Below, in pieces: positions 1,176-52,304 of a stretch of 64,000 nucleotides of DNA. The DNA is from Eledone cirrhosa. Its lineage: Eukaryota. The position numbers and the translations under genes are program-made. The notes under the pieces are model-generated. The model was not told the origin of the DNA. It did no database searches and was given only the letters and a program-made list of their open reading frames with translations. The stretch is from contig OZ024748.1 of NCBI GenBank assembly GCA_964016885.1, positions 30,752,001-30,816,000 on the forward strand, given 5' to 3'. Positions within the stretch are counted from its first letter, which is position 1. Every line of letters starts with the position of its first letter.

Positions 1176-1179
<4 letters not shown>

Positions 1180-1316
1180 AATGTAATCTGAGTTTTTTCG
1201 AATATTATTAATAACATTCAATTCGTTTGCAATTTTGCAAACAAGCCTCAATTTTATAGCCATGTCAGTAGAATGAACACTTCATTCTTGCTCTTGTGTT
1301 GGCATGCGAACAAAAA

Positions 1317-1358
1317 TGCAGACACTAATGTTTCTGGGTATCACCCTTCATCAGTACA
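1317..1358 (-). ncRNA. Type I hammerhead ribozyme motif (left-arm copy)
   Basis: minus strand: tgta CTGATGA a-gggt-gat-accc-a GAAA cattagt GTC tgca. Confidence 0.7.
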
Positions 1359-1464
1359 GCTCACTGTTCACCTGCCAAACTGTCAGAGCTAGTGAAAATA
1401 TATGCTATTTTCAAAAATACACAGCTCAAATTCACTAGCTCTGACAGTTTGGCAGGTGAACAGT

Positions 1465-1514
1465 GAACTGTACTGATGAAGGGTGATACCCAGAAACATT
1501 AGTGTCTGCAGTTC
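1465..1514 (+). ncRNA. Type I hammerhead ribozyme motif, GUC cleavage after 1506
   Basis: gaactgta CTGATGA a-gggt-gat-accc-a GAAA cattagt GTC tgcagttc; 8-bp stem I, 4-bp stem II, short stem III. Confidence 0.8.
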
Positions 1515-1630
1515 TGTTCGCATGCCAACGCAAGAGCAAGAATGAAGTGTTCATTTTACTGACATGGCTATACAATTGAGGCTTGTTTGCAAAATTGCAA
1601 ACGAATTGAATGTTATTATTAATATTCAAA

Positions 1631-1817
1631 GGGCGATGGATTGGCAGTATTGGTAGAGGGTCGGACGCCATGCTTTGACGTATAGAGTTACGGCCCTTTA
1701 CATTCTGAGTTCAAATCCCGCCAAGGTTAACTTTGCCTTTCATCCTTACGGGGTTGATAAAATAAAGTTCCAGTAATGCACTCGGTAATTGCTGGCCTTG
1801 TGCCTAACGTAGAAACA
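1631..1817 (+). mobile_element. tRNA-derived SINE (central domain gcctttcatccttacggggt.gataaaataaagtaccag, resembling the Meta/MESC-type domain)
   Basis: A-box-like tggcagtattgg, B-box gagttcaaatcc; target-site duplication attattaatatt at 1615-1626 and 1818-1829; more than 12 copies in the window. Confidence 0.85.
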
Positions 1818-1834
1818 ATTATTAATATTGAAAA

Positions 1835-1958
1835 AAACTTAGATTACATTTATTGTATTCAGCCATGTAGAGCGAAATTTTCTTTTTATATATATATATA
1901 TATATAAAAAGAAAATTTCGCTCTACATGGCTGAATACAATAAATGTAATCTAAGTTT
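1835..1958. repeat. Perfect palindrome centred on a (TA)n tract
   Basis: aaacttagattacatttattgtattcagccatgtagagcgaaattttcttttt-(TA)n-exact reverse complement. Confidence 0.9.
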
Positions 1959-2446
1959 GTATTCTTACATAATTTACACATCACCGAATTCTTTCGCTAA
2001 TATAGGGGTTCCCTCCCTTGCTGAATACCATGTGCGTTTTTGGCTTTGGGTCCCCTCTGTATTATTGGACGAAAACTCGTTGACGAAGCCTTTCCGCGTT
2101 CATCCCTTCTCTAGAAGTCTTATATATTTTTTATGTGGGCTGATAGTGATTGGATTAAGGAATTGCAGAAACCCAAGAAGCTAGATTTTACATCTTTCTA
2201 GCGGGTCCGGGTGAGTTTTTTACATTCATTTAATTTATTAATTTATTGATATTTTATTTGAGTGACCCGAATCTTCCTGGTCGTTCTTTTTCGGCTGCAC
2301 GGGTGATTTTAGGCATGATCTCTATGTGTTGGTATTTTAACGATAGTTATAGCTCTGATTTATCCAAATTATTGAGCCCTCTGCCACACATGTCGGATAT
2401 TGTTTATCGTGATTTCGTGGGCTGATATTCCGATTCTCGATTATTC

Positions 2447-2499
<53 letters not shown>

Positions 2500-2879
2500 T
2501 AAGTGTGTGTGTATATGTTTATATGGATGGCTCTGTCACTTGCACAATAATTTCACGAGCAGTTTACACAGTTGATCAAACAGCCAGAATACTTATTGTC
2601 AGAAGTGACAGTGGATCAACACACATTCCATAGCTCACCTATCGCACATGATGAATATGAGGGAGCATAATTATACTTTGAAGAACATCTATCACGTTCA
2701 TTCTCCCTGTAGAGTAGTTGGTGATACTACTACTAGTACCATGATAAAATGAACTCAGTAGATTGTGAGAATGAATGTATGTGAGATGGAGACCCTTGGC
2801 TCATAAGAGAGGTCAGTGGATCTGCTTCAGGAATGATTTCATCTGTGTTAAGCCATCTAAGCTGGGAAGGCAGACATTA

Positions 2880-3177
2880 AATGGTGAGGATGATGGTAGT
2901 GGTGGCAGTGGTGGTGGTGTTGGTGGTGGTGGTGGTGGCGATGGCAGTTATAGTGGTGATGAGGATGATCGTAGTGGTGGTGGCAGTGGTGCTGGTGGTA
3001 GTGGTGATGGTGGTGGCGATGGCAGTTATGGTGGTGATGAGGATGATCGTAGTGGTGATGGCAGTGGTGGTGGTGGCGGTGGTGGTGGTGGTGGTGGTGG
3101 TGGCGGCAGTGTTGGTGGTGGTGGTGGTGGCAGTGGTGGTGCTGGTGGAGGAGATGATGATGATGATCATGATGGTG
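2880..3177. repeat. (GGT/GAT)n low-complexity repeat
   Basis: trinucleotide runs with an internal ~75-bp duplication. Confidence 0.9.
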
Positions 3178-3398
3178 TCTAAGGTTAAGGTTAATTTAAA
3201 AACTAAAATAATGCTGCCATGTAAAAATAAATTGACAAATTAGTTATTTAAACTAGACATATATTATATTTTATTCACAGATAATCAGATGTTTTTTAAA
3301 AAAAGCTATTTATGATGTACTGGTAAATATATTATTTCTGACTTCCTCTTTCATAGTCAGGTAAATCATTTTAGAGGGAGGGGGGGGGATAATTATAT

Positions 3399-3592
3399 TC
3401 AGTAAAGTTTTATAAGGGTACAGTGACAACGATTATAAACACGAAAAGCAATACATGTGGGATATTTCAAACAGATGCTAGAACACTGAATTTCTGAATG
3501 AACTATTTTTGTTATATCACTTACAATATTGTGATAGACATTCTTTTTAAAGGTGAATGTTGAATATGCCGTAAAACTGTTCACTTCTCTTT
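3399..3592 (-). CDS. Gene A exon 6 (terminal): C-terminal PAN/Apple-like domain
   Basis: acceptor ttttctgttctag, phase 1; EREVNSFTAY...SEIQCSSICLKYPTCIAFRVYNRCHCTLIKLY*. Confidence 0.75.

Positions 3593-7596: not shown

Positions 7597-7652
<56 letters not shown>

Positions 7653-11440: not shown

Positions 11441-11444
<4 letters not shown>
8864..11444 (+). mobile_element. Inverted 5' segment of the same RTE-clade LINE: APE endonuclease plus reverse transcriptase, ATG at 8905
   Basis: GTLNVRT, IQEHR, SAYSPT, GDFNAH, IDFIL, SDH (APE); YRGISL, QNGFR, FIDFRKAFDSV, GVLQGDTLAPYLF, FADD (RT); breaks at LGAKI into (TA)n. Confidence 0.95.
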
Positions 11445-12036: not shown

Positions 12037-12316
12037 ATATATATTTATATATATATGTATATGTATGTGTATGTATGTTGAATAGCACTATATCTGGTGC
12101 TGCCATTGTCCAATATGTAGCCCATAGATATATCATAATTTTAAAGACCTTAGCGTAAATTTGACTGTTATGACTAACACAGCAAGAAACATAGAAGATT
12201 GCCAAGAAACAATTATATAGAATGGTAATCAGAAATATAATCTCCTGTGGATGCCCGATGTTCTTTTTCAGGTTATTTATTTTGTTAGATTCTAAAATTC
12301 TTATATATATATATAT

Positions 12317-12778
12317 ATGTATATATAGTATATTTGGCAATATACTGTATGCTTAATTAAAAACATTTTGAAGACCTTACGCTATTGTTTTAAAGTAGTG
12401 ACTATGTCACTTACTTCTTTTTTCAACAAACAAAGGGAGATAAGCTAACAGATCTCTGTTTCATACTGTTGGTATTCATCAGAGCTTAGCACTCACCTTT
12501 GTCTGTTGAAAATTATAAATGTTGGATTCTTATAGAATTCCAGTAATAATCAGGAACTGATTATACAGAGCGGTTGCCGGTCCAGCAAAAATTGAAAATT
12601 AGAATTGGTGCTCTGAAATAGCGATGTTTATATGAATGTATATATAGTATATTTGGCAATATACTGTATGCTTAATTAAAAACATTTTGAAAACCTTACA
12701 CTATTGTTTTAAAGTAGTGACTATGTCACTTACTTCTTTTTTCAACAAACAAAGGGAGATAAGCTGACAGATCTCTGT
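12317..12778 (-). mobile_element. Partial-tandem 319-nt monomer with hammerhead (retrozyme / Penelope pLTR-like)
   Basis: direct repeats 12317-12459 and 12636-12778, offset 319 nt; abuts (TA)n at 12302-12319. Confidence 0.7.
12441..12488 (-). ncRNA. Type I hammerhead ribozyme motif
   Basis: taagct CTGATGA atac-caaca-gtat GAAA cagagatct GTT agctta; the second repeat copy has GTC at the cleavage triplet. Confidence 0.8.
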
Positions 12779-14180
12779 GTCAAAATGGTGCAGGGCTTTA
12801 TCGGTTGCAGGATGTCCCGAAAGAGGAAGATGTGAGATGAACCGATCAAGTCAGACCTGGCTCAGTTGAACCTCCCAATAGGGATGACACAGGACTGAGA
12901 CACTACAATGTATGACAAAAGACCCATGTCGACAACTCAACCCTGGATTCAGTTCATAACAGCGTCACACAGCTCCACATTGTAAACAAGGTCAACGGCA
13001 GGCCTATTTAGTAACATGGTTCCTTTTATGAGTAAGGCTTGGTGCGGCCAACAGGCCCAACCTCCCTTATAAATTATGGTGCCTCTGTAAGCAGGGTATG
13101 GCATGGCCAGCTGGCCTGTCTCTCCTCATTATGGTGCCATCTGGTTCCACACTGTCGGTGTGGTTGGGACTCTCAAAATATGGTTCTGTTGTGAGAAGGG
13201 CTTGGCATAGCCAACTGGCCTGCCCCTCCTCATAACAGTGCCATCCAGTTCCTCACTGCAAATGTGGTTGGTGTTAGGAAGGGCATGCAGCTGTAAAAAT
13301 TCCGGCCAAATTTACAGTTCCGTTTAAGCAAGGTACAGCATGGCCAATCTGGCCAGACTTGACTCATGACATAGAGAGACATAGAGACGACCTGTTTAAC
13401 CCATGCAAGCATGGAACATGGACATTAAACAGTGATGATGATGATGATGATGATGATACATATATGTGTGTTTATGTGTGTGTATGTGAGTGTGTATGTA
13501 TATATATAGAGAGACTTGTGGTTGGTGCTGTATCTGCTAGAAGTAAATATGTATAATTAAATTATACGTAATACTTTTCTGTGATCAGTAAATAAATCAC
13601 CAAATATTGATGCCATGTATATTCTATTTTGGCAGATAGGGTGGGGGATGGGGGTAACTAGGAGAAAGGAACATAGCCTTATAAAACATATTGGCTACCA
13701 TAGCATAAACATGCTATTGGCTACCATAGCATAAACATACTATTGACTACAATAGTATAGATATCTTTCTTCCGTATATTCTATTTTGGGCGGAGATGGT
13801 GAGAGCAGACCTCAGATCACTGAAGCTCACGGAGGAGATGACGAAGGACCGTGACAAGTGGAGAGATGCTGTGCTGAATAGAACCTGTGCCACCCTTGCA
13901 AGCAGGGAAAAGCGGACGTAACATGATGATGATGATGATGATGATATTGATGAGGCACACATTGTAGAGCTAGCCTAGGGTGCTAAATATCCAGATGTTG
14001 GCTCTAGATACTGCATGTGTAAAATATACACAAGTGTGCATAGCTATTGGATAAAATAGAGACATCAAACAAAGGAGTACATATAATTGAGTAAAATTCT
14101 TGAAAACTGTGTCTCTATCGTTGCATCAATTAGATTGTAGAACTAGTTAAACAATATGTATAAAATGACAACACACTTAC

Positions 14181-19521: not shown

Positions 19522-19577
<56 letters not shown>

Positions 19578-19622
19578 TAAACAAATAATGAATAAACAAT
19601 TCCTTATATTAAACAAAAAAAG

Positions 19623-19776
19623 TTCATTATTTAACGATCGTTTCTAGGATATATATGTGTTAGAATTGGTATGCATATTCAACAGATCTATGTACAAAAT
19701 TATACAAAATTATACAAATTATCAAGATTAAATATACATACCAACACATATATACGCCGTCTTCAGAAATAATGAA
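19623..19776 (-). ncRNA. Hammerhead-like motif with long stem II (left-arm copy)
   Basis: reverse complement of 25964-26117. Confidence 0.55.
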
Positions 19777-20689
19777 GTATATTTATTGATAATAACAACA
19801 ATTCAAAATTTCAGGTCCGTTTGGGAACAAAATTGACCAATGAAAACACAAAGGGTTAAATGCAGTTCGGTGTGTGTATATACATGTAAAACCCTTACAC
19901 ATATTTTACAAAAATGTATGTATAATTTGTATACGCATACTAAAAGGATGGATGCAAATACAAAATTTCAAGGTTAATGTCTCTGTAAGTTTATAATGCA
20001 CATATAAGATGCGTATTGACACAAGTATGAAATTAAGTATATAAATATATTTTTTCATACTCACACATATCCGTACAATCACACATACACACGCGTATAT
20101 GCATAAATATACACATAACCACGAACATACAAACACACACACACCCCCACTCACATTTATATATGTGGATATAAAATCATAAGCACATGGATATTAATTC
20201 ACTCACATAAAACATTGGCACACACATTTTTAGATCAAGATACAGAAATTAGGTGGGAGGGGGGGGGGAGAGGTCAGTATTCAACGGTCTGAGCAGACTG
20301 CCTAATATAGATGTATCTATAAACTAAGAAAATAAAAAAATAAAAAATAATAAATAAACATTAAAGAGGAAAGAATAGAAAGAAAAAAGAAAAAAGAAAA
20401 AAAGAAAAAAGAAATATATCAAGAAAATATATATATATATATATATATACATATATATATACACATACACATATATATATATATATATACACACACATTT
20501 ATATATATATAATATACATATATATACACATAGACACACACACACACATACATAAATATACACACATATATACAAACACATACATACATATACACACATC
20601 CACACTAAGAACATACATACACACACATATATAAACATATACATATACACACATACATACATATACACATATACATACAAATACACATA

Positions 20690-20743
<54 letters not shown>

Positions 20744-21059
20744 TATGTATATACACGTACATATACACACACATATACATATAATCACACATACTATATA
20801 GACACACATATATATAACCACACACATACATGCACATATACAACACTTACACACTAATATACATACAGATATACACATACATAGCTATATATACACACAA
20901 ATATATACAGACTTACATATATACATACAGACAAATACTTACGCATCTATATATCGGTATATACATACAAACACCACTACACTATCACACAACTTAGAAA
21001 TACAAAGAGAAAGGTATATACCTATACACACATACATATACAAATAGAAAAACATATAG

Positions 21060-21090
<31 letters not shown>

Positions 21091-21378
21091 TATATATATA
21101 CATATTTATATATAACATATATATATATATATATATACATACACATACATATACACATACACACACATACACATACACACACATACATACATGTACACAC
21201 ACATAGAAATATATACGCATACACACATACACACATACATATAAAGTCATACACACACAAACACCTACACGAACATACACATACACATATATAAAGATAT
21301 ATATACACACACACACACACACAACACATACACACATACACATATATATAAAAAAAAATAAATAATAAAGATATATAC

Positions 21379-21433
<55 letters not shown>

Positions 21434-21788
21434 CATATATATATACATACACATACATACACACATACATAGACAAACATGTACATACATACACGTACAT
21501 CGATATACATACATATATATATACACACATAGACATATACATACATACACACACAACTTTCATACACACATATATATACATGTATATTCATACATAGAAT
21601 TAGATATATAATCATACATACATATGCACTTACTTATACTCATATATACAAATACATACGCATCCATATATGCGTATATACATAAAAACGCCACTACAAC
21701 CTCACCTAACTCGGACATACAAATAAAAATAAAAAGGCATATGTATATACATATATACACGCATTAATAGAGACATATATATACACAT

Positions 21789-21848
<60 letters not shown>

Positions 21849-22089
21849 ATTCATATATATATATATATAGATACCCACACACACATAGCACCATAAATAC
21901 ACATACAAACACCCACATATACATATATATACACACGTATATATATATATATATATACACACACATAAAAAACAGACATGCACATATATATATATATTTT
22001 TTTACACTTATATATACACATATTATATACACATACACAACCTCACATATACACACATACACATAAGTTATATTATAATAATAAAAAAA

Positions 22090-22156
<67 letters not shown>

Positions 22157-22221
22157 CATATAGACATATATATACATATATACACACATACGAATATAGA
22201 CATATAATCACACATAGACAC

Positions 22222-22260
<39 letters not shown>

Positions 22261-22513
22261 TACATATACACAGACACATATACATACTCACATATATATG
22301 TGTGTGCACACACACATATATACACACATACACATATATACACATAAACACATATATGTGCATACATGCACACACACACACATATATCACATAGATACGA
22401 AGATAGACATATAAATAGAGAGACATACATATATATACACAACACACATACACACACATACAAACACACACACATACATATACATATATATACATATATA
22501 TATATTTCTATAT

Positions 22514-22546
<33 letters not shown>

Positions 22547-23183
22547 TACATATATATACACATACACATATACATACACACATTCACATACACATACATA
22601 TATACATGCATATATACACATATATACATACATACACACACTCATATATACACACACAATCTTACATTCATATTTGCATGCGCATATATGTATTTTTATA
22701 TTCAGATATAAATACACCTTAGAAATCAATATGTTAACTATCTTTGGTTTAGTTAACATATAATTAATGGTATACTTGTTTATTTTGAGATGCATAGATT
22801 TTGCCTTAGTTCTTGTTTATTGTATTTCCTAACACTGAAACTATGTAAAAACATACATTGGATTAAGATACGGAAAATATTCTATGTTTCTTGAAACATA
22901 TATTTACTATGATCCCCTTCTCCAAACCCCCCCTTTCCCCCATACTATTATCATCTGTATTTGTATGCGTGTATGTATGAATATATATGTAGGTAGGTGT
23001 CTATATAGGTTTGGGTATTTATATCTGAATATAAAAATACATATATGCGCATGCAAATATGAATGTAAGATTGTGTGTGTATATATGAGTGTGTGTATGT
23101 ATGTATATATGTGTATATATGCATGTATATATGTATGTGTATGTGAATGTGTGTATGTATATGTGTATGTGTATATATATGTA

Positions 23184-23216
<33 letters not shown>

Positions 23217-23469
23217 ATATAGAAATATATATATATGTATATATATGTATATGTATGTGTGTGTGTTTGTATGTGTGTGTATGTGTGTTGTGTATATATA
23301 TGTATGTCTCTCTATTTATATGTCTATCTTCGTATCTATGTGATATATGTGTGTGTGTGTGCATGTATGCACATATATGTGTTTATGTGTATATATGTGT
23401 ATGTGTGTATATATGTGTGTGTGCACACACATATATATGTGAGTGTGTATATGTGTCTGTGTATATGTA

Positions 23470-23504
<35 letters not shown>

Positions 23505-23571
23505 GGGTGTCTATGTGTGATTATATGTCTATATTCGTATGTGTGTATATATGTATATATATGTCTATATG

Positions 23572-23640
<69 letters not shown>

Positions 23641-23883
23641 TTTTTTTATTATTATAATATAACTTATGTGTATGTGTGTATATGTGAGGTTGTGTATGTG
23701 TATATAATATGTGTATATATAAGTGTAAAAAAATATATATATATATGTGCATGTCTGTTTTTTATGTGTGTGTATATATATATATATATATATACGTGTG
23801 TATATATATGTATATGTGGGTGTTTGTATGTGTATTTATGGTGCTATGTGTGTGTGGGTATCTATATATATATATATATGAAT

Positions 23884-23941
<58 letters not shown>

Positions 23942-24296
23942 ATGTGTATATATATGTCTCTATTAATGCGTGTATATATGTATATACATATGCCTTTTTA
24001 TTTTTATTTGTATGTCCGAGTTAGGTGAGGTTGTAGTGGCGTTTTTATGTATATACGCATATATGGATGCGTATGTATTTGTATATATGAGTATAAGTAA
24101 GTGCATATGTATGTATGATTATATATCTAATTCTATGTATGAATATACATGTATATATATGTGTGTATGAAAGTTGTGTGTGTATGTATGTATATGTCTA
24201 TGTGTGTATATATATATGTATGTATATCGATGTACGTGTATGTATGTACATGTTTGTCTATGTATGTGTGTATGTATGTGTATGTATATATATATG

Positions 24297-24355
<59 letters not shown>

Positions 24356-24644
24356 GTATATATCTTTATTATTTATTTTTTTTTTATATATATGTGTATG
24401 TGTGTATGTGTTGTGTGTGTGTGTGTGTGTATATATATCTTTATATATGTGTATGTGTATGTTCGTGTAGGTGTTTGTGTGTGTATGACTTTATATGTAT
24501 GTGTGTATGTGTGTATGCGTATATATTTCTATGTGTGTGTACATGTATGTATGTGTGTGTATGTGTATGTGTGTGTATGTGTATATGTATGTGTATGTAT
24601 ATATATATATATATATATGTTATATATAAATATGTATATATATA

Positions 24645-24680
<36 letters not shown>

Positions 24681-24993
24681 TATGTTTTTCTATTTGTATA
24701 TGTATGTGTGTATAGGTATATACCTTTCTCTTTGTATTTCTAAGTTGTGTGATAGTGTAGTGGTGTTTGTATGTATATACCGATATATAGATGCGTAAGT
24801 ATTTGTCTGTATGTATATATGTAAGTCTGTATATATTTGTGTGTATATATAGCTATGTATGTGTATATCTGTATGTATATTAGTGTGTAAGTGTTGTATA
24901 TGTGCATGTATGTGTGTGGTTATATATATGTGTGTCTATATAGTATGTGTGATTATATGTATATGTGTGTGTATATGTACGTGTATATACATA

Positions 24994-25047
<54 letters not shown>

Positions 25048-25963
25048 TATGTGTATTTGTATGTATATGTGTATATGTATGTATGTGTGTATATGTATAT
25101 GTTTATATATGTGTGTGTATGTATGTTCTTAGTGTGGATGTGTGTATATGTATGTATGTGTTTGTATATATGTGTGTATATTTATGTATGTGTGTGTGTG
25201 TGTCTATGTGTATATATATGTATATTATATATATATAAATGTGTGTGTATATATATATATATATATATGTGTATGTGTATATATATATGTATATATATAT
25301 ATATATATATATTTTCTTGATATATTTCTTTTTTCTTTTTTTCTTTTTTCTTTTTTCTTTCTATTCTTTCCTCTTTAATGTTTATTTATTATTTTTTATT
25401 TTTTTACTTTCTTAGTTTATAGATACATCTATATTAGGCAGTCTGCTCAGACCGTTGAATACTGACCTCTCCCCCCCCCCCTCCCACCTAATTTCTGTAT
25501 CTTGATCTAAAAATGTGTGTGCCAGTGTTTTATGTGAGTGAATTAATATCCATGTGCTTATGATTTTATATCCACATATATAAATGTGAGTGGGGGTGTG
25601 TGTGTGTTTGTATGTTCGTGGTTATGTGTATATTTATGCATATACGCGTGTGTATGTGTGATTGTACGGATATGTGTGAGTATGAAAAAATATATTTATA
25701 TACTTAATTTCATACTTGTGTCAATACGCATCTTATATGTGCATTATAAACTTACAGAGACATTAACCTTGAAATTTTGTATTTGCATCCATCCTTTTAG
25801 TATGCGTATACAAATTATACATACATTTTTGTAAAATATGTGTAAGGGTTTTACATGTATATACACACACCGAACTGCATTTAACCCTTTGTGTTTTCAT
25901 TGGTCAATTTTGTTCCCAAACGGACCTGAAATTTTGAATTGTTGTTATTATCAATAAATATAC

Positions 25964-26117
25964 TTCATTATTTCTGAAGACGGCGTATATATGTGTTGGT
26001 ATGTATATTTAATCTTGATAATTTGTATAATTTTGTATAATTTTGTACATAGATCTGTTGAATATGCATACCAATTCTAACACATATATATCCTAGAAAC
26101 GATCGTTAAATAATGAA
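25964..26117 (+). ncRNA. Type I hammerhead-like motif with ~115-nt stem II insertion
   Basis: ttcattattt CTGAAGA ...tatatatgtgtt...aacacatatata... GAAA cgatc GTT aaataatgaa; 10-bp perfect stem I, palindromic stem III ACGATCGT; base of stem II imperfect. Confidence 0.6.
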
Positions 26118-26303
26118 CTTTTTTTGTTTAATATAAGGAATTGTTTATTCATTATTTGTTTAATATTTTATCTTGACTCTGTATACCGTTTATCTTTCAC
26201 CGAAAGTGATTTTTCATTACATCTCTTCTTTCCATGATATCCGGAATACATTGAGTTCTTCATACGGATTGGACACTACCGTAAACTCTTGGTAGATTTA
26301 TCT

Positions 26304-26364
<61 letters not shown>

Positions 26365-26809: not shown

Positions 26810-26841
<32 letters not shown>

Positions 26842-27039
26842 GTACATGTACATACATATATGTATACAGACATACAGTAGTATGTATATATATATACATA
26901 CATGCACACATATATATATGTACGTATGGATTCACCGAACATTTATTATAATGCTCGGTGTGTTTGTAAACAAACATCCCGTATTAAGCCGTAGTGTCTA
27001 GCAACCATCGTTGCTCGTTTGTTCAACACTGATAAAGGA

Positions 27040-27082
27040 ACGCTGTACTAGTTTCAAGCTTATTAGCTATCGTCAGCAACGT
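27040..27082 (-). ncRNA. Type I minimal hammerhead ribozyme motif
   Basis: acgttg CTGACGA t-agct-aata-agct-t GAAA cta GTA cagcgt. Confidence 0.8.
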
Positions 27083-27313
27083 ATACCTTCCTGCCAGATT
27101 GTTGAAGTATATACTTACCTTATGCATATTAACGGCTGTGTAGCCCAATTTGCATATCGAGTGGGTTAATCGGCCGGGTGCACCGAAAACGATAAACGGA
27201 AAAAATGAAACGTAATTTCATTTCCCACTCTTAGCAAATTGGGCTACTCAGCCGTTAATATGCATAAGGAAAGTATATACTTTCAGACGTTCAACAATCT
27301 GGCAAGAAGGTAT

Positions 27314-27356
27314 ACGTTGCTGATGATAGCTAATAAGCTTGAAACTAGTACAGCGT
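27314..27356 (+). ncRNA. Type I minimal hammerhead ribozyme motif, GUA cleavage after 27350
   Basis: acgttg CTGATGA t-agct-aata-agct-t GAAA cta GTA cagcgt; palindromic stem III ACTAGT. Confidence 0.8.
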
Positions 27357-27877
27357 TCCTTTATCAGTGTTGAACAAACGAGCAACGATGGTTGCTAGAC
27401 ACTACAGCTTAATACGGGATGTTTGTTTACAAACACACCGAGCATTATAATAAATGTTTGGTGAATCCATATGTACATATATATATGTGTGCATGTATAT
27501 ATATATACATACTACTGTATGTCTGTATACATATATGTATGTACGTGTACATACTTATATTTAAGTAACAGCCGTACTAAGAGTGGGAAATGAAATTTCG
27601 TTTCATTTTTTCCGTTTATATATATATATATATATATGTATTTGTTTTGCAAGGATTTTGATATGAAATCTTGTGTTGAAACAAATATTGTTATATTTGC
27701 GAAGGGTCATATTGTTATAATATTGCCAGAAATAATAATAAAACTCACTCACCATTTGGTTTGGATTGGTTTTCGCTCCTGTATCTTTTACACTTCCATA
27801 GTTAATTTATCTGGCAATCAATGTTTATCATTGATTAACCAATGGTTAAAAATACAGATATAAATATAAATATAATC

Positions 27878-27921
27878 TATCAAAGTTCTTTCATCACACA
27901 CCTGTGACATCATCAGTGGTA
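27878..27921 (-). ncRNA. Hammerhead motif in the Penelope pseudo-LTR (slightly decayed)
   Basis: tacca CTGATGA tgtcaca-ggtg-tgtgat GAAA gaa CTT tgata; better homologue at 39011-39055. Confidence 0.6.
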
Positions 27922-29820
27922 CTATTATGTTTCCTCCCATTGTAATGTCTACGCCATTTTTATTTTATTTATTTATCTATTCTTGTCTCTGTCTCTGTTT
28001 GCACATGTTTTCTGTTTGGTGTGTGTGTTCATGTCTGAGTCTGTGTGTTTGTATTCTATCTTTGTTCACTAGTGTGTGTTTATGTGTGGTTGTTGTTATT
28101 GTACTTCTGTATATTTATTTATTTATATTTCCATTAGGTCAGTATTGTGTGTTTGTGTATGGTGGGTGTTGTTATTCTATTCATTTTTTCTGTTCAACTT
28201 TGGTTTTCTTAGTTCTATTTTGGTTGCTTCTCTGATTTGACTATCTGTTGAGTAATTTCTATGTTTAGATATTATTTTAATTTCTATGTCGTCTATATTA
28301 CCGTCATATCTTTGTCTGCCGTGTTCATATAGTACCAAACCGTCTTTTTGTCCTTTTAGTTCCCCCCAGTGTTGGTCTATTCTTTCTTCTATGCTTCGAG
28401 CTGTCTCACCTATGTATGTCGTTGTCATGTTGCTGCAAGTACCCTCTGTACATTTTATGCTATAAACTACATTTCTAGTTTTACAATTTATTTGAGGATT
28501 TATTCTACATATAACACATTTCTTATTCGTACAGAGACTTTTCTGAAAGGGGTATGTTTTGCTGATCAGGGATTTTATGGTAGTTCCTGGCTTTTCTACC
28601 ACTTTGATCTTTAGATGCGTCTTTCTTAGGGCCTTTCTACATTGCTTAGCTAATTTACCTCCAGGGGTACCATCCACGAACATGACACTCTGGTATCTCT
28701 GGTTGTTGTACCATGAAGTGGCTTTCCTTATCTTATGTTTAGTCCTATCTATGCTATTCCATGATTTGCTCCTGTACAACGGGAAAATTCTTTTATGTCC
28801 ATTTCTATGAGGGTTTTATATTTCTCCATGGCTCCTTTGTACACTCTGATTCTGTCTCTTTGGTTGTAGCCAGAGAACTGCATGCGGTTGATGAAATGTT
28901 GGATGTGTCTTTCCATTTCAGTTGGATCGCACATGCGGGACACATTCTTCATCACTCTTACCAAGTCTACGATCAGAATATTAGACTTAGCACTATTGGA
29001 CATTGCTGAGTTTTTGAGTATAAGGTATTTGGAGGCCACGGGTTTAGCATAATGTGAGTGGAGAATTTGGGCCCTCTCGTTTATAGTGTTTAACCAGAGT
29101 TCAGTGTCTAATACTGGTAGTCTATTTTTAGGGTGTTTGGAAGGGTAGTCAATAGTTACTGTTATGCTCTTTTAGCGAGAGGTCTTTTGGCTGTTGTCTG
29201 TATTGGTAGTGGAGATTATATTCTTAAAGAAGATAGAGATGTAAGGCTGCGTGTTTATGTTTCATGGTAGCAAAAAAGATCAGAAGGCATATTTCAAAAC
29301 ATAATAAAGATTTATTTTCTTCTTCATATTAATACAAGTACAATGCGAGTGAAGAACTGCAAACATATTGCATAATCAAGTTGAATGAGAAATGTAATTC
29401 TCCGCAGAGTTATATATCGAGATTACCCTCGGCTTTAGAGGGCAAGATCAAGAAAATCAGGAAGCGAGTTACATGGTACTGCTCAGTTAAAAATCCCGGA
29501 TGTAACTGCGGGAGAATTGATAATTAGGCTTGAAATCGATTGCTGGGCGGAAGTCGTGCTTAGTATTCTTACGCCACCAACCCTAAGGGCTGGTGACTGA
29601 CCAAGCACGACCAAATTACTCTGCTGCGATAAAGTAGCATGGAATATGAACATCATTATCACATCTCCCATTTTCCTGAATATCAGTCCAGCATCGAATT
29701 GCTACCTTTATGGATTGCACCATTGTGAATCTCTCTTGGACGCCTTTCTGCTATTATTGTTCTATTTATTGTTATCGTTATTGTTCCTGTTATTTCTATT
29801 ATTATTATTTCTATCTCTAA

Positions 29821-33955: not shown

Positions 33956-34176
33956 GACTTCAGTAGGTTGTAAACCTATATGTAACTAGCACCACTTAAT
34001 TAAGATCAATACATGAGGTTTGTATTCGATAGGTATTTTTTCCATCAATCGAAGTGTTTATTGTAGTTGTTCAATGAAAGGTTTATTGACTTGTTGGTGT
34101 AAATAACTTAAATGCAGGGTATATATTATAGATAAAAGAAATCAAAGAACGCCTATATACTCAAACAATTTTTATT

Positions 34177-34223
34177 CGCTGACAATGTTTCATCCATACC
34201 ATGGGGCAGGAATCATCAGAGCG
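34177..34223 (-). ncRNA. Type I hammerhead ribozyme motif
   Basis: cgct CTGATGA t-tcc...gga-t GAAA catt GTC agcg. Confidence 0.7.
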
Positions 34224-34469
34224 TTATAAACAAAAATATAGTCTTGAATATAAACTCTACCAAGCTTGGTATCCAGAACAGTAGATATACAGAACAGGAT
34301 AATAAGAGGGAGGGAGATTGGAGATGAGAAGGATGGAGAGAATGCGTAATGGGGTTGTTAGTCAACATTATAGCAAAATATGAGAATACAAGCAGATTTT
34401 CTCACAAGAAACTGAGGCATGTGAAGATACACAAAAGCAATTAAAAGCAATTATTAGCACCAAATTACC

Positions 34470-35408: not shown

Positions 35409-35437
35409 CTTGTTTATAAGTGTGAAGAGCAAATAGA
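35318..35437. repeat. Perfect palindrome centred on (TA)n
   Basis: tctatttgctcttcacacttataaacaagtatatac-(TA)n-gtatatacttgtttataagtgtgaagagcaaataga. Confidence 0.9.
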
Positions 35438-35551
35438 ACCAGTGCGTACTCACACTCTATGCAAATTAGTCTGCCCACTACTAATTTTCATAGAAAAAGC
35501 ATATAACGATATGTGCTTTTACAATTCTCCAGAAAGGCCGGTAGATAGGTA

Positions 35552-35596
35552 AATATTGCTGATGAGTTGTAACAACAACGAAACTAGTTCAATATT
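35552..35596 (+). ncRNA. Type I minimal hammerhead ribozyme motif
   Basis: aatattg CTGATGA gttg-taacaa-caac GAAA cta GTT caatatt; 7-bp stem I, canonical G-C closing pair in stem II. Confidence 0.8.
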
Positions 35597-35871
35597 CCTT
35601 GTCTGGCTTTCTGGAGAATAGAGGGAAGGTGTTTCCTCGAAAACCAGTATGACTCTAAAAACCGGTTTGTCTGTGTGTTTACATACAGAATAGCTGCGTT
35701 GCTCACAGTAAAGCAACCAGTGAAAGACTTGTTACATCTACATATGTATACGTGTGTGTATTCATATGCACACTAGTATTTCAGTATGCATATGTAGATG
35801 TACATTTTTAACTTAATTGTTTAAGCGTCAGTCATACAAAAGTGAGTTACAAACGAATGTACATTTTTAAC

Positions 35872-35917
<46 letters not shown>

Positions 35918-35982
35918 AAGAAGGTGTGGTAAGGTACCAGGTGAACTATAACGCACCAGAGTACTTGATACTTAGAGTAGTA

Positions 35983-36061
35983 GATGGCAGAGCTCTGGCC
36001 ATTTCAACAGCTAGATCCGAACTTTGGATCTAGCTGTCGAAATGGCCAGAGCTCTGCCATC
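35983..36061. repeat. 36-bp-arm hairpin within a (TA)n-bounded element related to 52109-52295
   Basis: gatggcagagctctggccatttcaacagctagatcc-gaacttt-ggatctagctgtcgaaatggccagagctctgccatc. Confidence 0.85.
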
Positions 36062-37540
36062 GGGGTCCTGACTCTTTTCCTACATATATATATATTTATA
36101 TTTAAAGAATGCAGCAAGCAGGGTTTGAAAATTGAATTAGAGGTCTTCGCCATAACTTTGACTTAATAAAATAGTCTCGTAATTGTTTCTACTTTTGGCA
36201 CAAGGCCAGCAATTACCTCAGTGCATTACTGGTACTTTATATTATCGACCCTGTAAGAATGAAAGGCAAAGTTAACCTCGAACAGGGCATATAAACCTAC
36301 ACATTTAAATGTTGCAGTTTGTAAAGGGGAAGAAAGTACTCAACACATGGTGTAATGTATATTGTTTATTAAAACTATTATTTGAATTATTAACAGAAAG
36401 AGAAGAGAAAACAAGGGGAAAAAATAAGGTAAGAAATGGAAAACAGAACACAAGAGAGAGAAGTAAAAAAAAAAAAAAAGAATAAGAGAATTAGAGTGAA
36501 ATAGAAAGAGTGAGGGAAACAAAGAAAAGAAGAAAAATGGTAGTAATTAAAAAGACAGAAGTCTTAGGATGAAAAAGAAGGAAAATAGAGAAAGATGGAA
36601 AAAGATAAAGAGAAACAAAAGAAAAAAGAATAAAATACAATAATTCCAAATTTTCATAAATAAAAGTATATAAATATATATATATTTTATAAAATATCAA
36701 ATAATCTTGTAAGAATTGTTTCTAATTTAAGCACAAAGCCATTTTGGTGGAAGAGGAAATTGATTTAATCGACCCTAGTTCTTGACTGGTACTTTATTTT
36801 TATCGATCCTTGAGAGATGAAAGATAAAGTTTACCTCAGTGGGATTTGAATTCTGGATGTAAAGAACAGAAACAAATGCTGCAAAGATTTTTGTCCAAAG
36901 GTCTAATGATTTTGTCAATCCACTGAGCTTTGTAAAAATGACATTTCTTCTTCAATCAATAGATTGAACAGCTTGCACAGATTCCCTTGACTCTCTGCCA
37001 CCATGCAGTTCTATTGTTCCTTATATTCAGCAGGTCAGAGGGATTGCAGTTTATGTTGTGTCAAATCTGCTTCATACAGGTCTTGGCTTGTCATCTGCTA
37101 GCTTTCCTTGTGTAGGTTCCCACAAAACAATTTCGTCTTTAGCTTTCCAGCAATTCACTCCAAATCTAATGCTATGCTCTTTGATGATGTCTGATACTGG
37201 ACAAAGATTCCCAAACTGTCAATCATTGGTCAGATGATCTCTCCAAGTGACATTGAAAGCCGCTTCTTCAATGCAGTGTATATTCTAAAGGCAACACTTA
37301 ATCTTTTCATTACGATATTTCTAATGACAGACACTACCTAGGATTTCTCAAAAAATAATCAACAATTTTGAAGGTATTTAGTAACATAACTAACTTTTTT
37401 CATTATTAAATTGGTGTTTTGAGGATAATTTAACAAAAGTTCTTATAAAGAAATATGATGAAAAGTTTTTAGATAAATATAAACACTTTAAAGAAAACAG
37501 TTTATATCATAGAACCAGAAGTGATTTGATATAAAAATCC

Positions 37541-38172: not shown

Positions 38173-39010
38173 ATTATACTTAAGTATCAATTTAAAGGCC
38201 TGTGGCTGAGAGGTTAGAGAATTGGATTCACATTCATCACCCTTGAGCAAGACACTTTATTTCACATTACTCCTTCTGCCAAGAGTTGCGACTGGAAGAT
38301 GGTATTAGCAATGGAAAAACAAATGGAAACATTGTTTCCTTGATCCAGTCTGACAAGTTCCACCCCACTTGCTAAGTGAATGGGGTCTGGGATCTTGTTG
38401 ATCATCTTTAAAAAGAAAATCAAATTAGATACAATACAAAATAAAATACTGAGTTGTGAGAGTCCATATCATTCACATATGAATGTAGTCTCCCCTTTTC
38501 ATATATACATGATTATATAATAATAAAGAAACAGTTTTGCATCATATATGATTATTTATAATAATATATATACATTAGGAGGGTCATGTTGCCAATAATA
38601 TATATATATATAATAAAATATATATACAATTATATATATATTCAATTATACATATATGATTATATATAATAATATATATAGGATTATATATATATAATTA
38701 TATATATACAATTATATATATACAATTATATATATATTATTATATATGATTATATATATATATAATTATATATATACAATTATATATATGCAATTATATA
38801 TATATACGTTTCTGAATTTGTTTAGCAAGATTCTTTATCTGAAATCGTGTGTTGAAACCGATATTGTTATACTTTGGGAGGATCATGTTGCCAATAAGAA
38901 ACACACGCACCAGTTGCTTTCACTTCAATTTATTATATATTTATAAATTTACAAATCTATAAATTTCTGGTTGGTTGGTTGGTTCCACAACCAGATAGTT
39001 GTTTATATAT

Positions 39011-39055
39011 AGTCATAGTCCTTTCGTCACACACTCTGTGACCTCTTCAGTGACT
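39011..39055 (-). ncRNA. Type I hammerhead motif in a solo pseudo-LTR-like piece (38820-39350) related to 27650-28170
   Basis: agtca CTGAAGA g-gtcaca-gagtg-tgtgac GAAA gga CTA tgact. Confidence 0.7.
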
Positions 39056-39505
39056 GGGGATTCTTTTCTTTGTTTCTGTGCCTTTCCTTTCTTCTGTCCT
39101 ACGCCATTTTGTTTCTGTGTGTGTGTTGTGTGCTCAGTTTGCGCATGCACCACATCCGGGTGTCTGTGTGTGTTTATGTTCATTTATCTATTTGTTTATT
39201 TATTTATTTATTTACATGTTATTGGTTGGTTGTTTGTTCTATGTGTGTGTGTGTTTTCATTTTGTCCTTAATTGTAAGTTGTGATGTTGCTGTTCCACTC
39301 ATATTTTCTATTTAATTTTGGTTGTAATTCTTTTATGTTTATTGCCTCTGTAATATATATATACGAGTAAAGTATATATATACGATTATATATATAATAA
39401 TATATATATGATTATATATAATTATATGTATACAATTATACATATATATATATATATATATAAGATTATATATATAAGATTATATATATATAATTATATA
39501 TATAC

Positions 39506-45608: not shown

Positions 45609-45804
45609 TATTATACAGTTTTCCACCTCCTCCAATTTACAGGCACATACTCAGAGCAGGCTCATTCACTTGGGTCATGCTTGCCTCACTCACTCATCTT
45701 TCAACAAATTGCTGGGAAGTGAGCACTTCCCTCTCCACCCTGATTTTCCTTTTCAAATGAAATTTGAAAAAGTTAATCAGGACATCACCGAAGAAAGGAT
45801 GATG

Positions 45805-45862
<58 letters not shown>

Positions 45863-45869
45863 TAATAAA

Positions 45870-49214: not shown

Positions 49215-49895
49215 AAAAGTTGATGGTGGTGATGGTGTTGATGATGGTGGTGATGGTGATGATGATGGTGGTGATGATGGTGGTGTGATGTTGGTGATGA
49301 TGGGGGGGAAGGTGGTGATGATGGGGGGAAGATGGTGATGATGGGGGGAAGGTGGTGATGATGGGGGAGAAGGTGGTGATGATGGTGTTGATGATGGGGG
49401 TGATGATGGGGTGATGATGGTGGAAGGAGGTGATGATGGGGTTGATGATGGTGGTGATGATGGGGGGTGATGATGGGGGAAGGTGGTGATGATGGTGTTG
49501 ATGATGGTGGTGATGATGGGAGTGAAGGTGGTGATGATGGTGTTGATGATGATGGGGGAAGGTGGTGATGATGGTGTTGATGATGGTGATGATGGTGGTG
49601 ATGATGGTGTTGATGATGGTAGTTATGATGGTGGTGATGATGGTGGTGATGATGGTGGTGATGGTGGTGGTGATGGTGTAAATGATGGTGGTGATGATGG
49701 TGGTGATGAAGGTGATGATGGTAGTTATGGTGGTGATGATGTTAGTTATGATGGTGATGATGATGGTGTTGATGATAGTAGTTATGATGGTGGTGGTGAT
49801 GATGATGATGATGGTGGTGATGATGGTGGTGATGATGGTGGTGATGATGGTGGTGATGGTATTGATGATGATGATGGTGGTAATGATGATGGTGG
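49215..49895. repeat. (GAT/GGT)n low-complexity repeat
   Basis: trinucleotide runs. Confidence 0.9.
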
Positions 49896-50134
49896 TGAAG
49901 GTGTGTGGCTTAGTTGTTAAAGTGTTGAGCTTATGATCATAGACATACAGTTGTTTGTTGCTCCAGTCCAATCAGCTGCAAACAATTAGTTGTAACAGTA
50001 ATTCAAAGAACCAACCTTGTTACACACTGTGTCATGCTGAATCTCCCTGAGAATTACATTAAAGTTACATGTGCCTGTTTAATTTCATGAGCAGGCTGCT
50101 CCATTGATTGAACAACTGGAACACTCATTTAAAC

Positions 50135-50321
50135 CAGGCATGCCAAACATGCAGCCCTTTACAAACACGCCTGCAGCCCGCACAAAGATTTTTACAGTGC
50201 AAGCGTAATATAAAATAAAAATATTAGTTGTAATGTACACAATTAGTTGTCATGTGTGGCCCTCAGACAAAACATATGTGACCCATGTGGCCCTCGGGTG
50301 ATCCTCAGTTTGACAAGCCTG
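50135..50321. mobile_element. hAT (Charlie-like) MITE
   Basis: TIRs caggcatgccaaac / gtttgacaagcctg; degenerate 8-bp TSD atttaaac / atctaagc. Confidence 0.7.
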
Positions 50322-50495
50322 ATCTAAGCCCCCCTGAAGTCCAACAACAATAACAATAGCAATAACAATAACAACAGCAACAATATCAACAACTACAACA
50401 ATAATAAAATAGATTAAAAAATTAATATCACTAAGATAAAATTCTTTTTTTTTAATGTAAATATCTGAATAGAAATGTCAGAATTGTTAACTTAC

Positions 50496-50532
50496 GAAAA
50501 CATATTGATAATCTGGAATATATTTTGTACAT
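50496..50532 (-). CDS. Gene B candidate first coding exon
   Basis: MYKIYSRLSICF plus 1 nt, donor gtaagt; joins as MYKIYSRLSICFHVTSA-CPLE; size and phase resemble gene A exon 1. Confidence 0.4.
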
Positions 50533-50679
50533 GTTTGAAAATGGTTTCACAATGAAATCTGGAGTGATCTGGTTTAACGTGAATAGTTAACAGGAAATAA
50601 GAATACAATCAACATTTTTATATACAATGTAATCTTTATTGGATCTTTATTGTCACAGAGTTTAATCATCCACAGCATC

Positions 50680-51075
50680 AACACCACCACCACCAACACT
50701 ATACCACCACCACCATCACCACTACCACCACCAGCACCAGCACCAACACCACCAACACCACCAACACCACCATCAACACTGCCATCACCACAACCACTGC
50801 CACCACCACCATCACCACCACCACTGCCACCATCAACACCACTACCACCACCATCAACATCACCGTCACCACTACCAACACCACCACCACCACGACCACC
50901 ACAACTACCACCATCAACACCACCACCACCACCACCACCACTGCCACCATCACTACCACTACCACCACTACCAACACCACCACTACCAACACCACCACTC
51001 CCACTACCACCATCAACACCACCACCACCACCACTACCACCACCACCACCATCAACACCACTGCCAACACCACCA
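50680..51075. repeat. (CCA)n low-complexity repeat
   Basis: trinucleotide runs. Confidence 0.9.
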
Positions 51076-51159
51076 ATATTATATATGAAAATTGAGAAAA
51101 AACTCTAATTATGGGAGTATAAACAAGATAGACAAAAATGTATTCGCTTATATATAAAT

Positions 51160-51241
51160 CTCTCTACCATGGTTTCATACCAGGAAGAATTCTTATTGGA
51201 ACCACCAATAATTAAAGAATCTGCTATACTCTTCAGCGGAG
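51160..51241 (-). ncRNA. Decayed hammerhead motif with extended stem II; inverted copy at 51438-51517
   Basis: CTGAAGA gtatagcag...ctggtat GAAA ccatg GTA gagag; palindromic stem III ACCATGGT; stem I weak. Confidence 0.5.
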
Positions 51242-52069
51242 TTTAATTATTCAAGAAGAGCTAAGAGAAAATGAACAAGATATAATACAAACTGTTTCCT
51301 TTATTGAGGCAACATTGTGGAATAAAAACATTCGTAGTGTTTCGTTATCAAAATCTCATAGCATATTAGAACTATTTGAGAGGCTTATAATGTCACTAGA
51401 ATTAACAGCCAAAAGACCGCCTGGTACAGCTCAACAAACTAAGAGTATGGTGGATTCTTCAATTATTAGTAGTTCCAATATAAATTCTTCCTCATATGAA
51501 ACTATGGTAGGGAGATCTATAGCGATTATTTGTATGGTTGAGGTGGTGAATTGATTGTGTTGTGGTGTTGATTCATTTGTTGCATGTGTGCTCACTTATA
51601 GCTTGCTGTGGTGTGGTCACTATTGTGTGATACAGTGTGACCAGAGGTTGCATGTGTGTAGGTAAGTGAGGTAGTGTTCAATAAGATGATGATGATATGA
51701 TAGTTCCTTGATCACACAGAAAATGAATATATATAAATGAACCACAATAACACCAAACCGCTATATTATTAATTTATTGAAAATAGCTCATGCTGAAGCT
51801 ATACGAAAAATACACAAGAATTATGTACTTTATTTGTTTGTTTGTAAAAGTAGAGTTGATCTAAGACAGGCTATTTATATCTGTCACTTCCTCTGTTCCC
51901 TGGTTGTCCACTTTCAGACTTGTTTATACCTGAAAAGAAATAACCCAGAAAATGACCATTAAATGTCACCCAGGGGTGACATTTAACGGTGCGAACAGAT
52001 TTTGCTACAGATCTACATATAGGTAAGTTTAGCATGATTAGAGATTTTCTCACTTAATTTTAATATATA

Positions 52070-52107
<38 letters not shown>

Positions 52108-52304
52108 GAAAATGTTTAACCTCGACGGCAGAGCTCAAGCCGTTTCATGGGCTATTTCTGCCCACAAATAGCCGTCAAAACGGCTTGCGCTCTGCCGTCA
52201 GGTTAAACATTTTACTATTACCCACTCTACTACCCTAAGTATTGAGTACTCTGGTGCGTTATAGTCCATCTGGTTCCTTACCACAACTCCTTTGTTATAT
52301 ATAT

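What the first reader, a model, noticed from the sequence alone, without database searches (positions are those of the whole stretch)
1176..52295. A recurring ORF-less architecture: (TA)n - outward-facing hammerhead foldback - (TA)n, in several unrelated sequence families
Seen: about 12 type-I hammerhead cores (1317, 1465, 12441, 19623, 25964, 27040, 27314, 27878, 34177, 35552, 39011, 51160), mostly with tiny or palindromic stem III (ACTAGT, ACGATCGT, ACCATGGT). In every inverted pair (1176-1853, 19570-26171, 26840-27553, 51160-51517, and the half-ribozyme hairpins at 35983 and 52109) the left arm carries the minus-strand copy and the right arm the plus-strand copy. They are always head-to-head and next to TA-rich or (TA)n tracts. 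Known: Penelope-like elements carry minimal hammerheads in pseudo-LTRs, make 5'-inverted insertions and prefer microsatellites; palindromic stem III favours dimeric ribozymes. Inference: a diverse population of non-coding ribozyme RNAs mobilised in trans by Penelope RT/GIY-YIG enzymes, converting TA microsatellites into palindromes from about 80 bp to 6.6 kb.
Basis: partly seen in the sequence, partly recalled or inferred. Interest (0 to 1): 0.8.

Follow-up and report, generated by a model that had tools for sequence, protein, structure and literature searches.

The report
Penelope retrotransposon ends carrying hammerhead ribozymes
These ribozyme-shaped palindromes are the 3' ends of very abundant Penelope-like jumping genes, some protein-coding and some short non-coding passengers, and their near-strict pairing of one short and one long end likely records how both DNA strands are primed during insertion.

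Summary
All 12 hammerhead cores are at the stated places. A strict scan finds 10 in the window against 0.02 in shuffles, and 80 in 75 sampled 10-kb genomic stretches against 0-1. Inverted partners are head-to-head (18 vs 1; SINE control 21 vs 20) and end at (TA)n. This is the published Penelope-like element (PLE) insertion anatomy. 'ORF-less, moved in trans' holds only for families A, B, E and G (320-470-nt tandem monomers, retrozyme-like). The 6.6-kb palindrome is the 4.1-kb microsatellite-rich 3' UTR of a young, coding 7.03-kb Hydra-type PLE. The cores at 27878 and 39011 end coding Neptune-type PLEs; one ORF remnant is in the window. The 'half-ribozymes' are 3' halves of a U3:A8 hammerhead variant (3,451 exact genomic matches), a variant already known from PLEs. 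Not found in the papers read: each family has two fixed 3' ends, 27 of 28 head-to-head pairs combine one short with one tailed end, and 10 of 26 such pairs are not nested. This favours coupled priming from both target strands over self-priming, and shows retrozymes carrying the PLE integration signature. Cleavage, expression and helper identity are untested.

The parts
1177..1424 (-). Family B left arm (438-nt ORF-less monomer, 5'-truncated), core at 1354, short 3' end against (TA)35 at 1107-1176
1431..1886 (+). Family B right arm, core at 1473, interrupted by a SINE-like repeat (about 1631-1824), tail 1854-1886, then (TA)9
12310..12790 (-). Family G partial tandem (about 320-nt ORF-less unit), core at 12482, no inverted partner
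19569..22715 (-). Family C left arm: 3' UTR of a coding Hydra-type PLE, core at 19766 with about 110-nt stem II, short end at (TA)n
22713..26304 (+). Family C right arm (includes the 299-nt unpaired centre), core at 25974, about 130-nt tail 26172-26304, then (TA)n
26838..27234 (-). Family A left arm (424-nt ORF-less monomer), core at 27076, short end
27224..27619 (+). Family A right arm, core at 27320, 56-nt tail, then (TA)n shared with the end of family D
27634..29171 (-). Family D: 5'-truncated Neptune-type PLE; broken RT-thumb/linker/GIY-YIG ORF 29171-28195, 3' UTR, core at 27916, tailed end
34135..34330 (-). Family H 3' end, core at 34219 (5' boundary not mapped); relatives share at least 1.45 kb upstream with no ORF found
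35437..35876 (+). Family E (465-478-nt ORF-less monomer, young; 9-unit array at C18:1.45 Mb), core at 35559, ends at (TA)18
35913..36082 (.). Family I foldback: left arm tailed, right arm short; each arm holds the 3' half (GAAA, stem III, GUC, stem I) of a U3:A8 hammerhead
38807..39354 (-). Family J: 3' end of a second coding Neptune-type PLE, core at 39050, tailed end; absent from the paralogous site, where the TA-rich array is uninterrupted
51075..51520 (.). Family F (old, about 80% between copies): minus arm with core at 51236; plus arm from about 51437 starting inside the core
52109..52297 (.). Family I foldback: left arm short, right arm tailed, TA repeats on both sides

Best explanation
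The features are 3' ends of Penelope-like retroelements, from both protein-coding families and ORF-less tandem monomers, and the head-to-head palindromes likely arise when the element's enzyme nicks both strands of a (TA)n tract and primes one cDNA from each. Shown: hammerhead-shaped motifs; coding parents for C, D and J; ORF-less units for A, B, E and G; two fixed 3' ends per family, each ending in a TA-like microhomology; head-to-head bias; one short plus one tailed end per pair; a pre-existing TA-rich target at one site. Inferred: a (probably dimeric) RT/GIY-YIG protein binds the RNA at the tail, primes one target strand at the downstream site and the other at the upstream site, and the two 5'-truncated cDNAs join at the centre. 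Also inferred: A, B, E and G borrow this machinery, most likely from a Hydra-type helper. Untested: ribozyme cleavage, which these data do not require for insertion.
For: Coding parents: the unit of C is 7,034 nt with an 830-aa stop-to-stop open frame carrying RWR, DKT, CxCX5C, CxxC and CxH and no CCHH, matching the Hydra description. D has a 1217-aa frame with a CX4CxxC linker and CCHH (35,401 first-look candidates). J has the ORF about 125 nt upstream of the queried end in 15 of 25 loci. The Atlas places both proteins with RT/GIY-YIG clusters. Orientation: 18 vs 1 in 75 sampled stretches; 26 vs 2 among the first 100 listed U3:A8 sites; 10 vs 0 among the D ORF neighbours picked from the listing; SINE control 21 vs 20. 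(TA)6 lies within 500 nt 3' of 68 of 74 cores vs 35% for random positions. Two ends: A +221/+277 (13 and 13 of 30), E +229-234/+303, B about +143/+180 nt after the predicted cut. Mixed ends in 27 of 28 classifiable pairs, p=1e-7, and in the C, D, J and H (2) pairs inspected. 10 of 26 scored mixed pairs are non-nested, so neither arm can be a copy of the other. In vitro, an anole PLE nicks and extends both strands and starts at two sites that bound the tail; a dimer is predicted (PMC11167929).
Against: The same in vitro paper saw no difference in start site between strands and no homology to the target, whereas here the ends are anti-correlated and TA-microhomologous. 16 of 26 scored mixed pairs are nested and would also fit self-priming. 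Pair lists were curated by hand from top-scoring hits; 7 of 35 pairs had an unclassifiable end. One tail-plus-tail pair was seen in family I (L277) and one short-plus-short pair in A (L009). No sequence link ties A, B, E or G to a particular coding family. Pfam and NCBIfam gave no significant hit for the parent proteins and no tree was built, so clade calls rest on motifs. For most cores the minimum-energy monomer fold is not the hammerhead (0.2-6 kcal/mol gap).
Confidence: 0.7

Rival explanations
1. Same elements, but the inversion arises by self-priming (snap-back) of one cDNA or antisense template that copies itself, as proposed for rotifer Penelopes.
For: Proposed in PMC3846280 to explain head-to-head junctions with palindromes. 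16 of 26 mixed pairs are nested. Arms of one insertion share non-consensus bases more often than arms of different insertions (0.10-0.23 vs 0.01-0.05). Family I inversions cluster inside its long stem II.
Against: 10 of 26 mixed pairs are non-nested, including the window's own A copy. Either arm can be the longer one. Shared variants fit a common source RNA equally well.
Confidence: 0.2
2. One reading: all families are non-coding ribozyme RNAs moved in trans.
For: True for A, B, E and G: tandem units of 424, 438, 465-478 and about 320 nt with no PLE ORF upstream within the about 1.5 kb held, in 30, 30, 30 and 25 loci (one unlinked ORF end 1.1 kb before a G copy).
Against: C, D and J have coding parents. 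F has an EN C-terminal remnant upstream in both tandem copies of L181. I follows a Hydra-like ORF end by 1.1 kb in L223. Other sampled families follow Hydra-like ORF ends by 0.5-1.6 kb.
Confidence: 0.03
3. The palindromes are amplification or assembly foldback artefacts.
For: The C arms are 99.3% identical. No short-read contig bridged a window junction by 31 or more letters on each side.
Against: Arms differ by 3.5-4.7% in A and B, as much as unrelated copies do. Ends differ by rule (short vs tail). C copies are 100% identical genome-wide over the 292-nt query. Short-read contigs of run X1 hold 8 other minus-to-plus joints of family A, with short sides of 24-28 nt.
Confidence: 0.04
4. The ORF-less monomers spread mainly by local satellite-type amplification or by a LINE (RTE) RT rather than by PLE enzymes.
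For: A 9-unit array of E exists. RTE-like LINE ORFs are abundant in the window. Local tandem expansion is discussed in 10.64898/2026.07.22.740005.
Against: Dispersed A, B and E copies show the PLE-specific two-site tail, head-to-head inversion and (TA)n ends, with no poly(A) seen in the printed flanks.
Confidence: 0.03

Closest known systems
Hydra-clade EN+ PLEs (Craig et al. 2021, PMC8557442)
   Same: Single ORF with C-terminal EN; RW(K/R), DKT, CxCX5C, CxxC/CxH, no CCHH; canonical 3' hammerhead; (TA)n target; inverted 5'-truncated copy and tail.
   Different: Family C is 7,034 nt with a 4.1-kb 3' UTR (GC 0.24, half purine-pyrimidine microsatellite), a 130-nt tail and an about 110-nt stem II. 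The 27 Hydra families in File S1 are 1,080-3,045 bp.
Neptune-clade PLEs
   Same: D: RT followed by CX2-5CxxC linker and GIY-YIG with CCHH; the tail encodes the ORF N-terminus as in PAc. J is 60-67% identical to D.
   Different: DKG is DKS; long Asn-rich insert (similar inserts known from Adineta, PMC3846280). Clade not tested by tree.
Metazoan non-LTR retrozymes (Cervera and de la Pena 2020, PMC7229834; Li et al. 2026 preprint 10.64898/2026.07.22.740005)
   Same: ORF-less tandem units with one type I hammerhead each. A has a U-U mismatch at the base of stem II like axolotl HHR_Amex2 and many Hydra hammerheads.
   Different: Units are up to 478 nt vs about 170-400 nt reported. Dispersed copies carry the PLE tail, inversion and (TA)n signature, which was not seen in the passages read ('tail' 0 hits in the preprint; 'inverted' and 'target site' 0 hits in PMC7229834). 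Circular RNA not shown here.
Minimal PLE hammerheads incl. the U3-A8 variant (Cervera and de la Pena 2014, PMC4209133; Perreault 2011, PMC3088659)
   Same: Extra nucleotide after A9, palindromic stem III, opposite-strand pairs 100-700 bp apart, U3-A8 covariation (about 1,300 hits in Schistosoma).
   Different: Family I couples U3:A8 to a stable 5-bp stem III and a GUC site. Total load here extrapolates to about 3e5 strict motifs.
Poseidon PAc of Anolis (Frangieh et al. 2024, PMC11167929)
   Same: Two RT start sites bounding the tail; AT-rich target; both strands nicked and extended.
   Different: In vitro, start site was independent of strand and non-homologous to the target. The genomic pairs here are anti-correlated and end in TA-like microhomology.

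Membership tests
EN+ PLE (families C, D, J) | Single ORF with RT and C-terminal GIY-YIG EN | tested here: met
   830-aa and 1217-aa open frames with RT and EN motifs read directly; Atlas neighbours are RT/GIY-YIG clusters; Pfam and NCBIfam non-significant
EN+ PLE (families C, D, J) | Partial tandems (pLTR), inverted 5'-truncated copy, tail at one end | tested here: met
EN+ PLE (families C, D, J) | RT phylogeny sister to telomerase | not tested
   no reference PLE/TERT sequences were fetched
Hydra clade (family C) | RWK, DKT, CxCX5C linker, CxxC and CxH, no CCHH, (TA)n target, canonical HHR | tested here: met
   RWR, SDKT, CNCRNKANC, CRLC, CNH in P0001 against section 11 of PMC8557442
Hydra clade (family C) | Generally short, under 3 kb (descriptive, not diagnostic) | tested here: not met
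   unit 7,034 nt vs 1,080-3,045 bp
Neptune clade (D, J) | CX2-5CxxC linker and CCHH in a C-terminal EN | tested here: met
   CTNRKCIIC and C..C..H..H in P0002; Nematis not excluded without a tree
Non-LTR retrozyme (A, B, E, G) | ORF-less tandem unit of a few hundred nt with a type I HHR in each unit | tested here: met
   at least two consecutive complete cores seen for A and E, partial tandems for B and G
Non-LTR retrozyme (A, B, E, G) | Transcription, self-cleavage and circular RNA | not testable with these tools
   no RNA holder listed
Type I hammerhead | Core CUGANGA (or UUGANAA), GAAA, UH with stems I-III | tested here: met
   10 of 12 strict; family I: 8 of 11 distinct long copies U3:A8, 94 of 116 3' halves with 4 of 4 stem III pairs, C17 in 106 of 116
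Type I hammerhead | Catalytic self-cleavage | not testable with these tools
   folding only
Coding PLE (F, H, I) | PLE ORF in cis upstream | tested here: inconclusive
   F: short EN remnant in L181 (67); I: ORF C-terminus in L223 and 3.1-3.6-kb tandem spacings; H: none found

The most novel reading that the evidence does not exclude
PLE integration is an ordered two-strand reaction: one enzyme complex primes the two target strands at different RNA start sites, one short and one tailed, using TA microhomology. Animal retrozymes here are SINE-like passengers of that reaction with their own snRNA-type promoter (an ATGCAAAT octamer 80-110 nt upstream of the core), served by unusually long-UTR Hydra elements that are still active.
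Probability: 0.4. Interest if true: 0.65.

Novelty: new member of a known kind. Interest (0 to 1): 0.42.

Why it matters
How PLEs make their tandem/inverted insertions is named as open in PMC8557442, and which enzyme moves animal retrozymes is still a hypothesis (PMC7229834; 2026 preprint). This genome offers about 1e5 or more natural insertion products, young near-identical coding (C) and non-coding (E) families, and a sharp rule (one short plus one tailed end, often non-nested) that any mechanism must explain and that an in vitro assay can test. The elements themselves, the orientation bias and the U3:A8 variant are already in print.

Tried and rejected
Rfam found only one sub-threshold hammerhead in the window and none in L223/L238; its miRNA hits are microsatellite and hairpin noise. 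Pfam, NCBIfam and PDB sequence searches did not recognise the PLE proteins. The first orientation count (34 vs 6) was inflated by TA-rich matches and self-hairpins; it was redone with filters (18 vs 1; one locus contributes two pairs). I first judged the 'half-ribozymes' unsupported because only 1 of 158 family I halves had CTGANGA upstream and a genome pattern for a canonical core with another cut site gave 0; longer copies then showed the U3:A8 core. 5' truncation points do not visibly cluster at the predicted cleavage site (no formal test). The search for a helper by shared 3' sequence found nothing convincing; the A/Hydra junction in L026 is a single case. No RNA holder was listed for family E, which is no evidence either way. 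Short-read contigs were too fragmented to bridge window junctions. The paralogous block did not extend to the B, C, A or D sites. A full-length family I unit was not obtained, so its coding status rests on one locus. The newt satellite-2 snRNA-type promoter is recalled; the paper was not held and the search listed no paper holding all four terms. Earlier scan findings: none returned.
Full report
Setting. The window is C8:30,752,001-30,816,000 of a 3.0-Gb animal genome, rich in microsatellites and LINE remnants.

Observation. All 12 listed cores exist. A descriptor requiring the core, stems I-III and UH finds 10 in the window (shuffle mean 0.017 of 60; 0 in 40 local shuffles) and 80 in 75 10-kb stretches taken at round coordinates (0, 0, 1 in three shuffles). 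That extrapolates to about 3e5 per genome, so the window is typical. After filtering TA noise, nearest inverted partners are head-to-head in 18 and tail-to-tail in 1 case; a SINE-like repeat gives 21 vs 20. Only 30 of 80 cores have such a partner. A (TA)6 tract lies within 500 nt downstream of 68 of 74 cores, upstream of 48 of 74, and beside 35% of random positions.

What the families are. C (the 6.6-kb palindrome): all 40 scored copies are 100% identical over the 292-nt query and recur at 7.0-7.1-kb spacing. Full units hold an 830-aa stop-to-stop open frame followed by a 4,108-nt UTR, and both window arms map inside that UTR. The protein has the Hydra-clade motifs, but the unit is more than twice the longest of the 27 families in File S1. 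D (27916): a broken RT/EN ORF lies directly upstream in the window, 82-88% identical to a 1217-aa frame with Neptune-type zinc motifs. J (39050): a related ORF ends about 125 nt upstream of the queried end in 15 of 25 loci. F and I have single-locus links to PLE ORF ends; H shares at least 1.45 kb of upstream sequence without a detected ORF. A, B, E and G are tandem units of 424, 438, 465-478 and about 320 nt with no linked ORF; E forms a 9-unit array. These fit the definition of non-LTR retrozymes, apart from the untested RNA-level features.

The half-ribozymes. Long copies of family I read: stem I, TTGA(G/A)AA, long stem II, GAAA, 5-bp stem III with palindromic loop, TC, stem I. 8 of 11 distinct long copies have U3:A8 and 3 have C3:A8. 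The 5' half occurs 3,451 times exactly, control 0. U3-A8 is known from natural hammerheads and from Schistosoma PLEs.

Mechanism. Each monomer family has two discrete 3' ends, about 35-74 nt apart, both ending in a TAT/AAT-like sequence that runs into (TA)n. This is the PLE tail, shown for PAc to lie between two RT start sites. In head-to-head insertions of A, B and E, 27 of 28 pairs with two classifiable ends have one short and one tailed end. The list has 35 pairs curated by hand: duplicates, the window's B copy and pairs cut by the locus edge were dropped, L025 was added, and 7 pairs had an unclassifiable end. The C, D, J and H pairs inspected follow the same rule, as do both family I hairpins in the window; exceptions are L009 and L277. 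In 10 of 26 scored mixed pairs neither arm is contained in the other, which a single self-copied cDNA cannot give without extra jumps. I infer two RNA-templated primings, one per nicked target strand, at different start sites, joined at the centre. This agrees with both-strand extension and the predicted dimer of PAc and differs from the self-priming proposal in PMC3846280, which still fits the 16 nested pairs. A paralogous block at C8:48.1 Mb shows the TA-rich array intact where J sits in the window, and different elements in the same TA tracts where E and the 52109 hairpin sit. So the targets pre-exist and are reused. Arm divergence equals between-copy divergence in A and B, which argues against artefact.

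Promoter lead. ATGCAAAT lies 80-110 nt upstream of 12 of 80 sampled cores (0.7 expected). These 12 fall in only five families, so they are not independent; none of 17 Neptune-type cores has it. The window's G copy lacks it, and one octamer-bearing group (TGCGCA, 1 of 7 copies) follows a Hydra-like ORF. An snRNA-type promoter as in newt satellite 2 is recalled, not read.

Literature seen. PMC8557442: abstract, outline, passages, section 11, supplement search and part 2 of 59. PMC11167929: parts 1-2 of 4. Preprint 10.64898/2026.07.22.740005: part 1 of 5 and passages; its supplements are closed. PMC7229834, PMC3846280, PMC3088659: passages. PMC4209133: passages and section 5. These already describe the inverted copy, the tail 'often only at one end', head-to-head as the most frequent arrangement, (TA)n targeting, palindromic stem III and opposite-strand hammerhead pairs. 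Searches listed no paper that, by title or abstract opening, quantifies end pairing, tests nesting or reports PLE integration marks on retrozymes. Subscription papers such as Arkhipova 2006 are not in the library, and unread supplements could hold such data.

Verdict. A real, genome-wide, known kind of structure. The added value is the end-pairing rule, the retrozyme-PLE signature and a young 7-kb Hydra-type element.

Noticed in passing
window 1835-1958 and 35318-35437: Perfect palindromes centred on (TA)n: 36-56 nt of the left flank is mirrored on the right and followed directly by the 5' end of another insertion (E at 35437). At 35318 the mirror includes a CA interruption absent from the paralog, suggesting fold-back copying of the target. 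3 of 2,073 TA tracts in the sample show this.
   Followed up: partly
window about 30347-55333 vs G000:C8:48.10-48.14 Mb: Segmental duplication, mostly 92-97% identical, differing by many independent insertions.
   Followed up: partly
window 14143-14463 and 15713-16105 (-): Two PAN/apple-domain exons of a host gene.
   Followed up: no
window 8740-11496 (+), 45777-48029 (+), 56798-59960 (+), 54120-55666 (+): LINE-type ORFs with RT domains; the first is a 918-aa APE-endonuclease plus RT frame ending at (TA)18.
   Followed up: no
window 1631-1824 and at least nine other places: Abundant SINE-like repeat; one copy interrupts the right arm of family B.
   Followed up: partly
window 11610-12046, 37979-38087, 53728-54021, 56794-56926, 7645-8289: Further foldbacks with no strict hammerhead hit, several ending at TA repeats; possibly other PLE-type ends.
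   Followed up: no
window 1959-2449 (+); L364 about 3180-3400: Another repeat family ending at (TA)n, present at different sites in the window and the paralog.
   Followed up: no
L026:690-760: A family A arm runs through its tail and a short TA stretch into a Hydra-like ORF near its N-terminus on the same strand; nested insertion or template switch.
   Followed up: partly
L207, L197, L194, L217, L113, L183, L184: Several more Hydra-like PLE families (30-60% identical to family C), some with 0.5-1.6-kb 3' UTRs before their hammerheads.
   Followed up: partly
window 49221-49903 and 50682-51075; 62498-63681: Oppositely oriented GGT/ACC-type microsatellite blocks, and a 28-bp minisatellite of 42 copies.
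   Followed up: no
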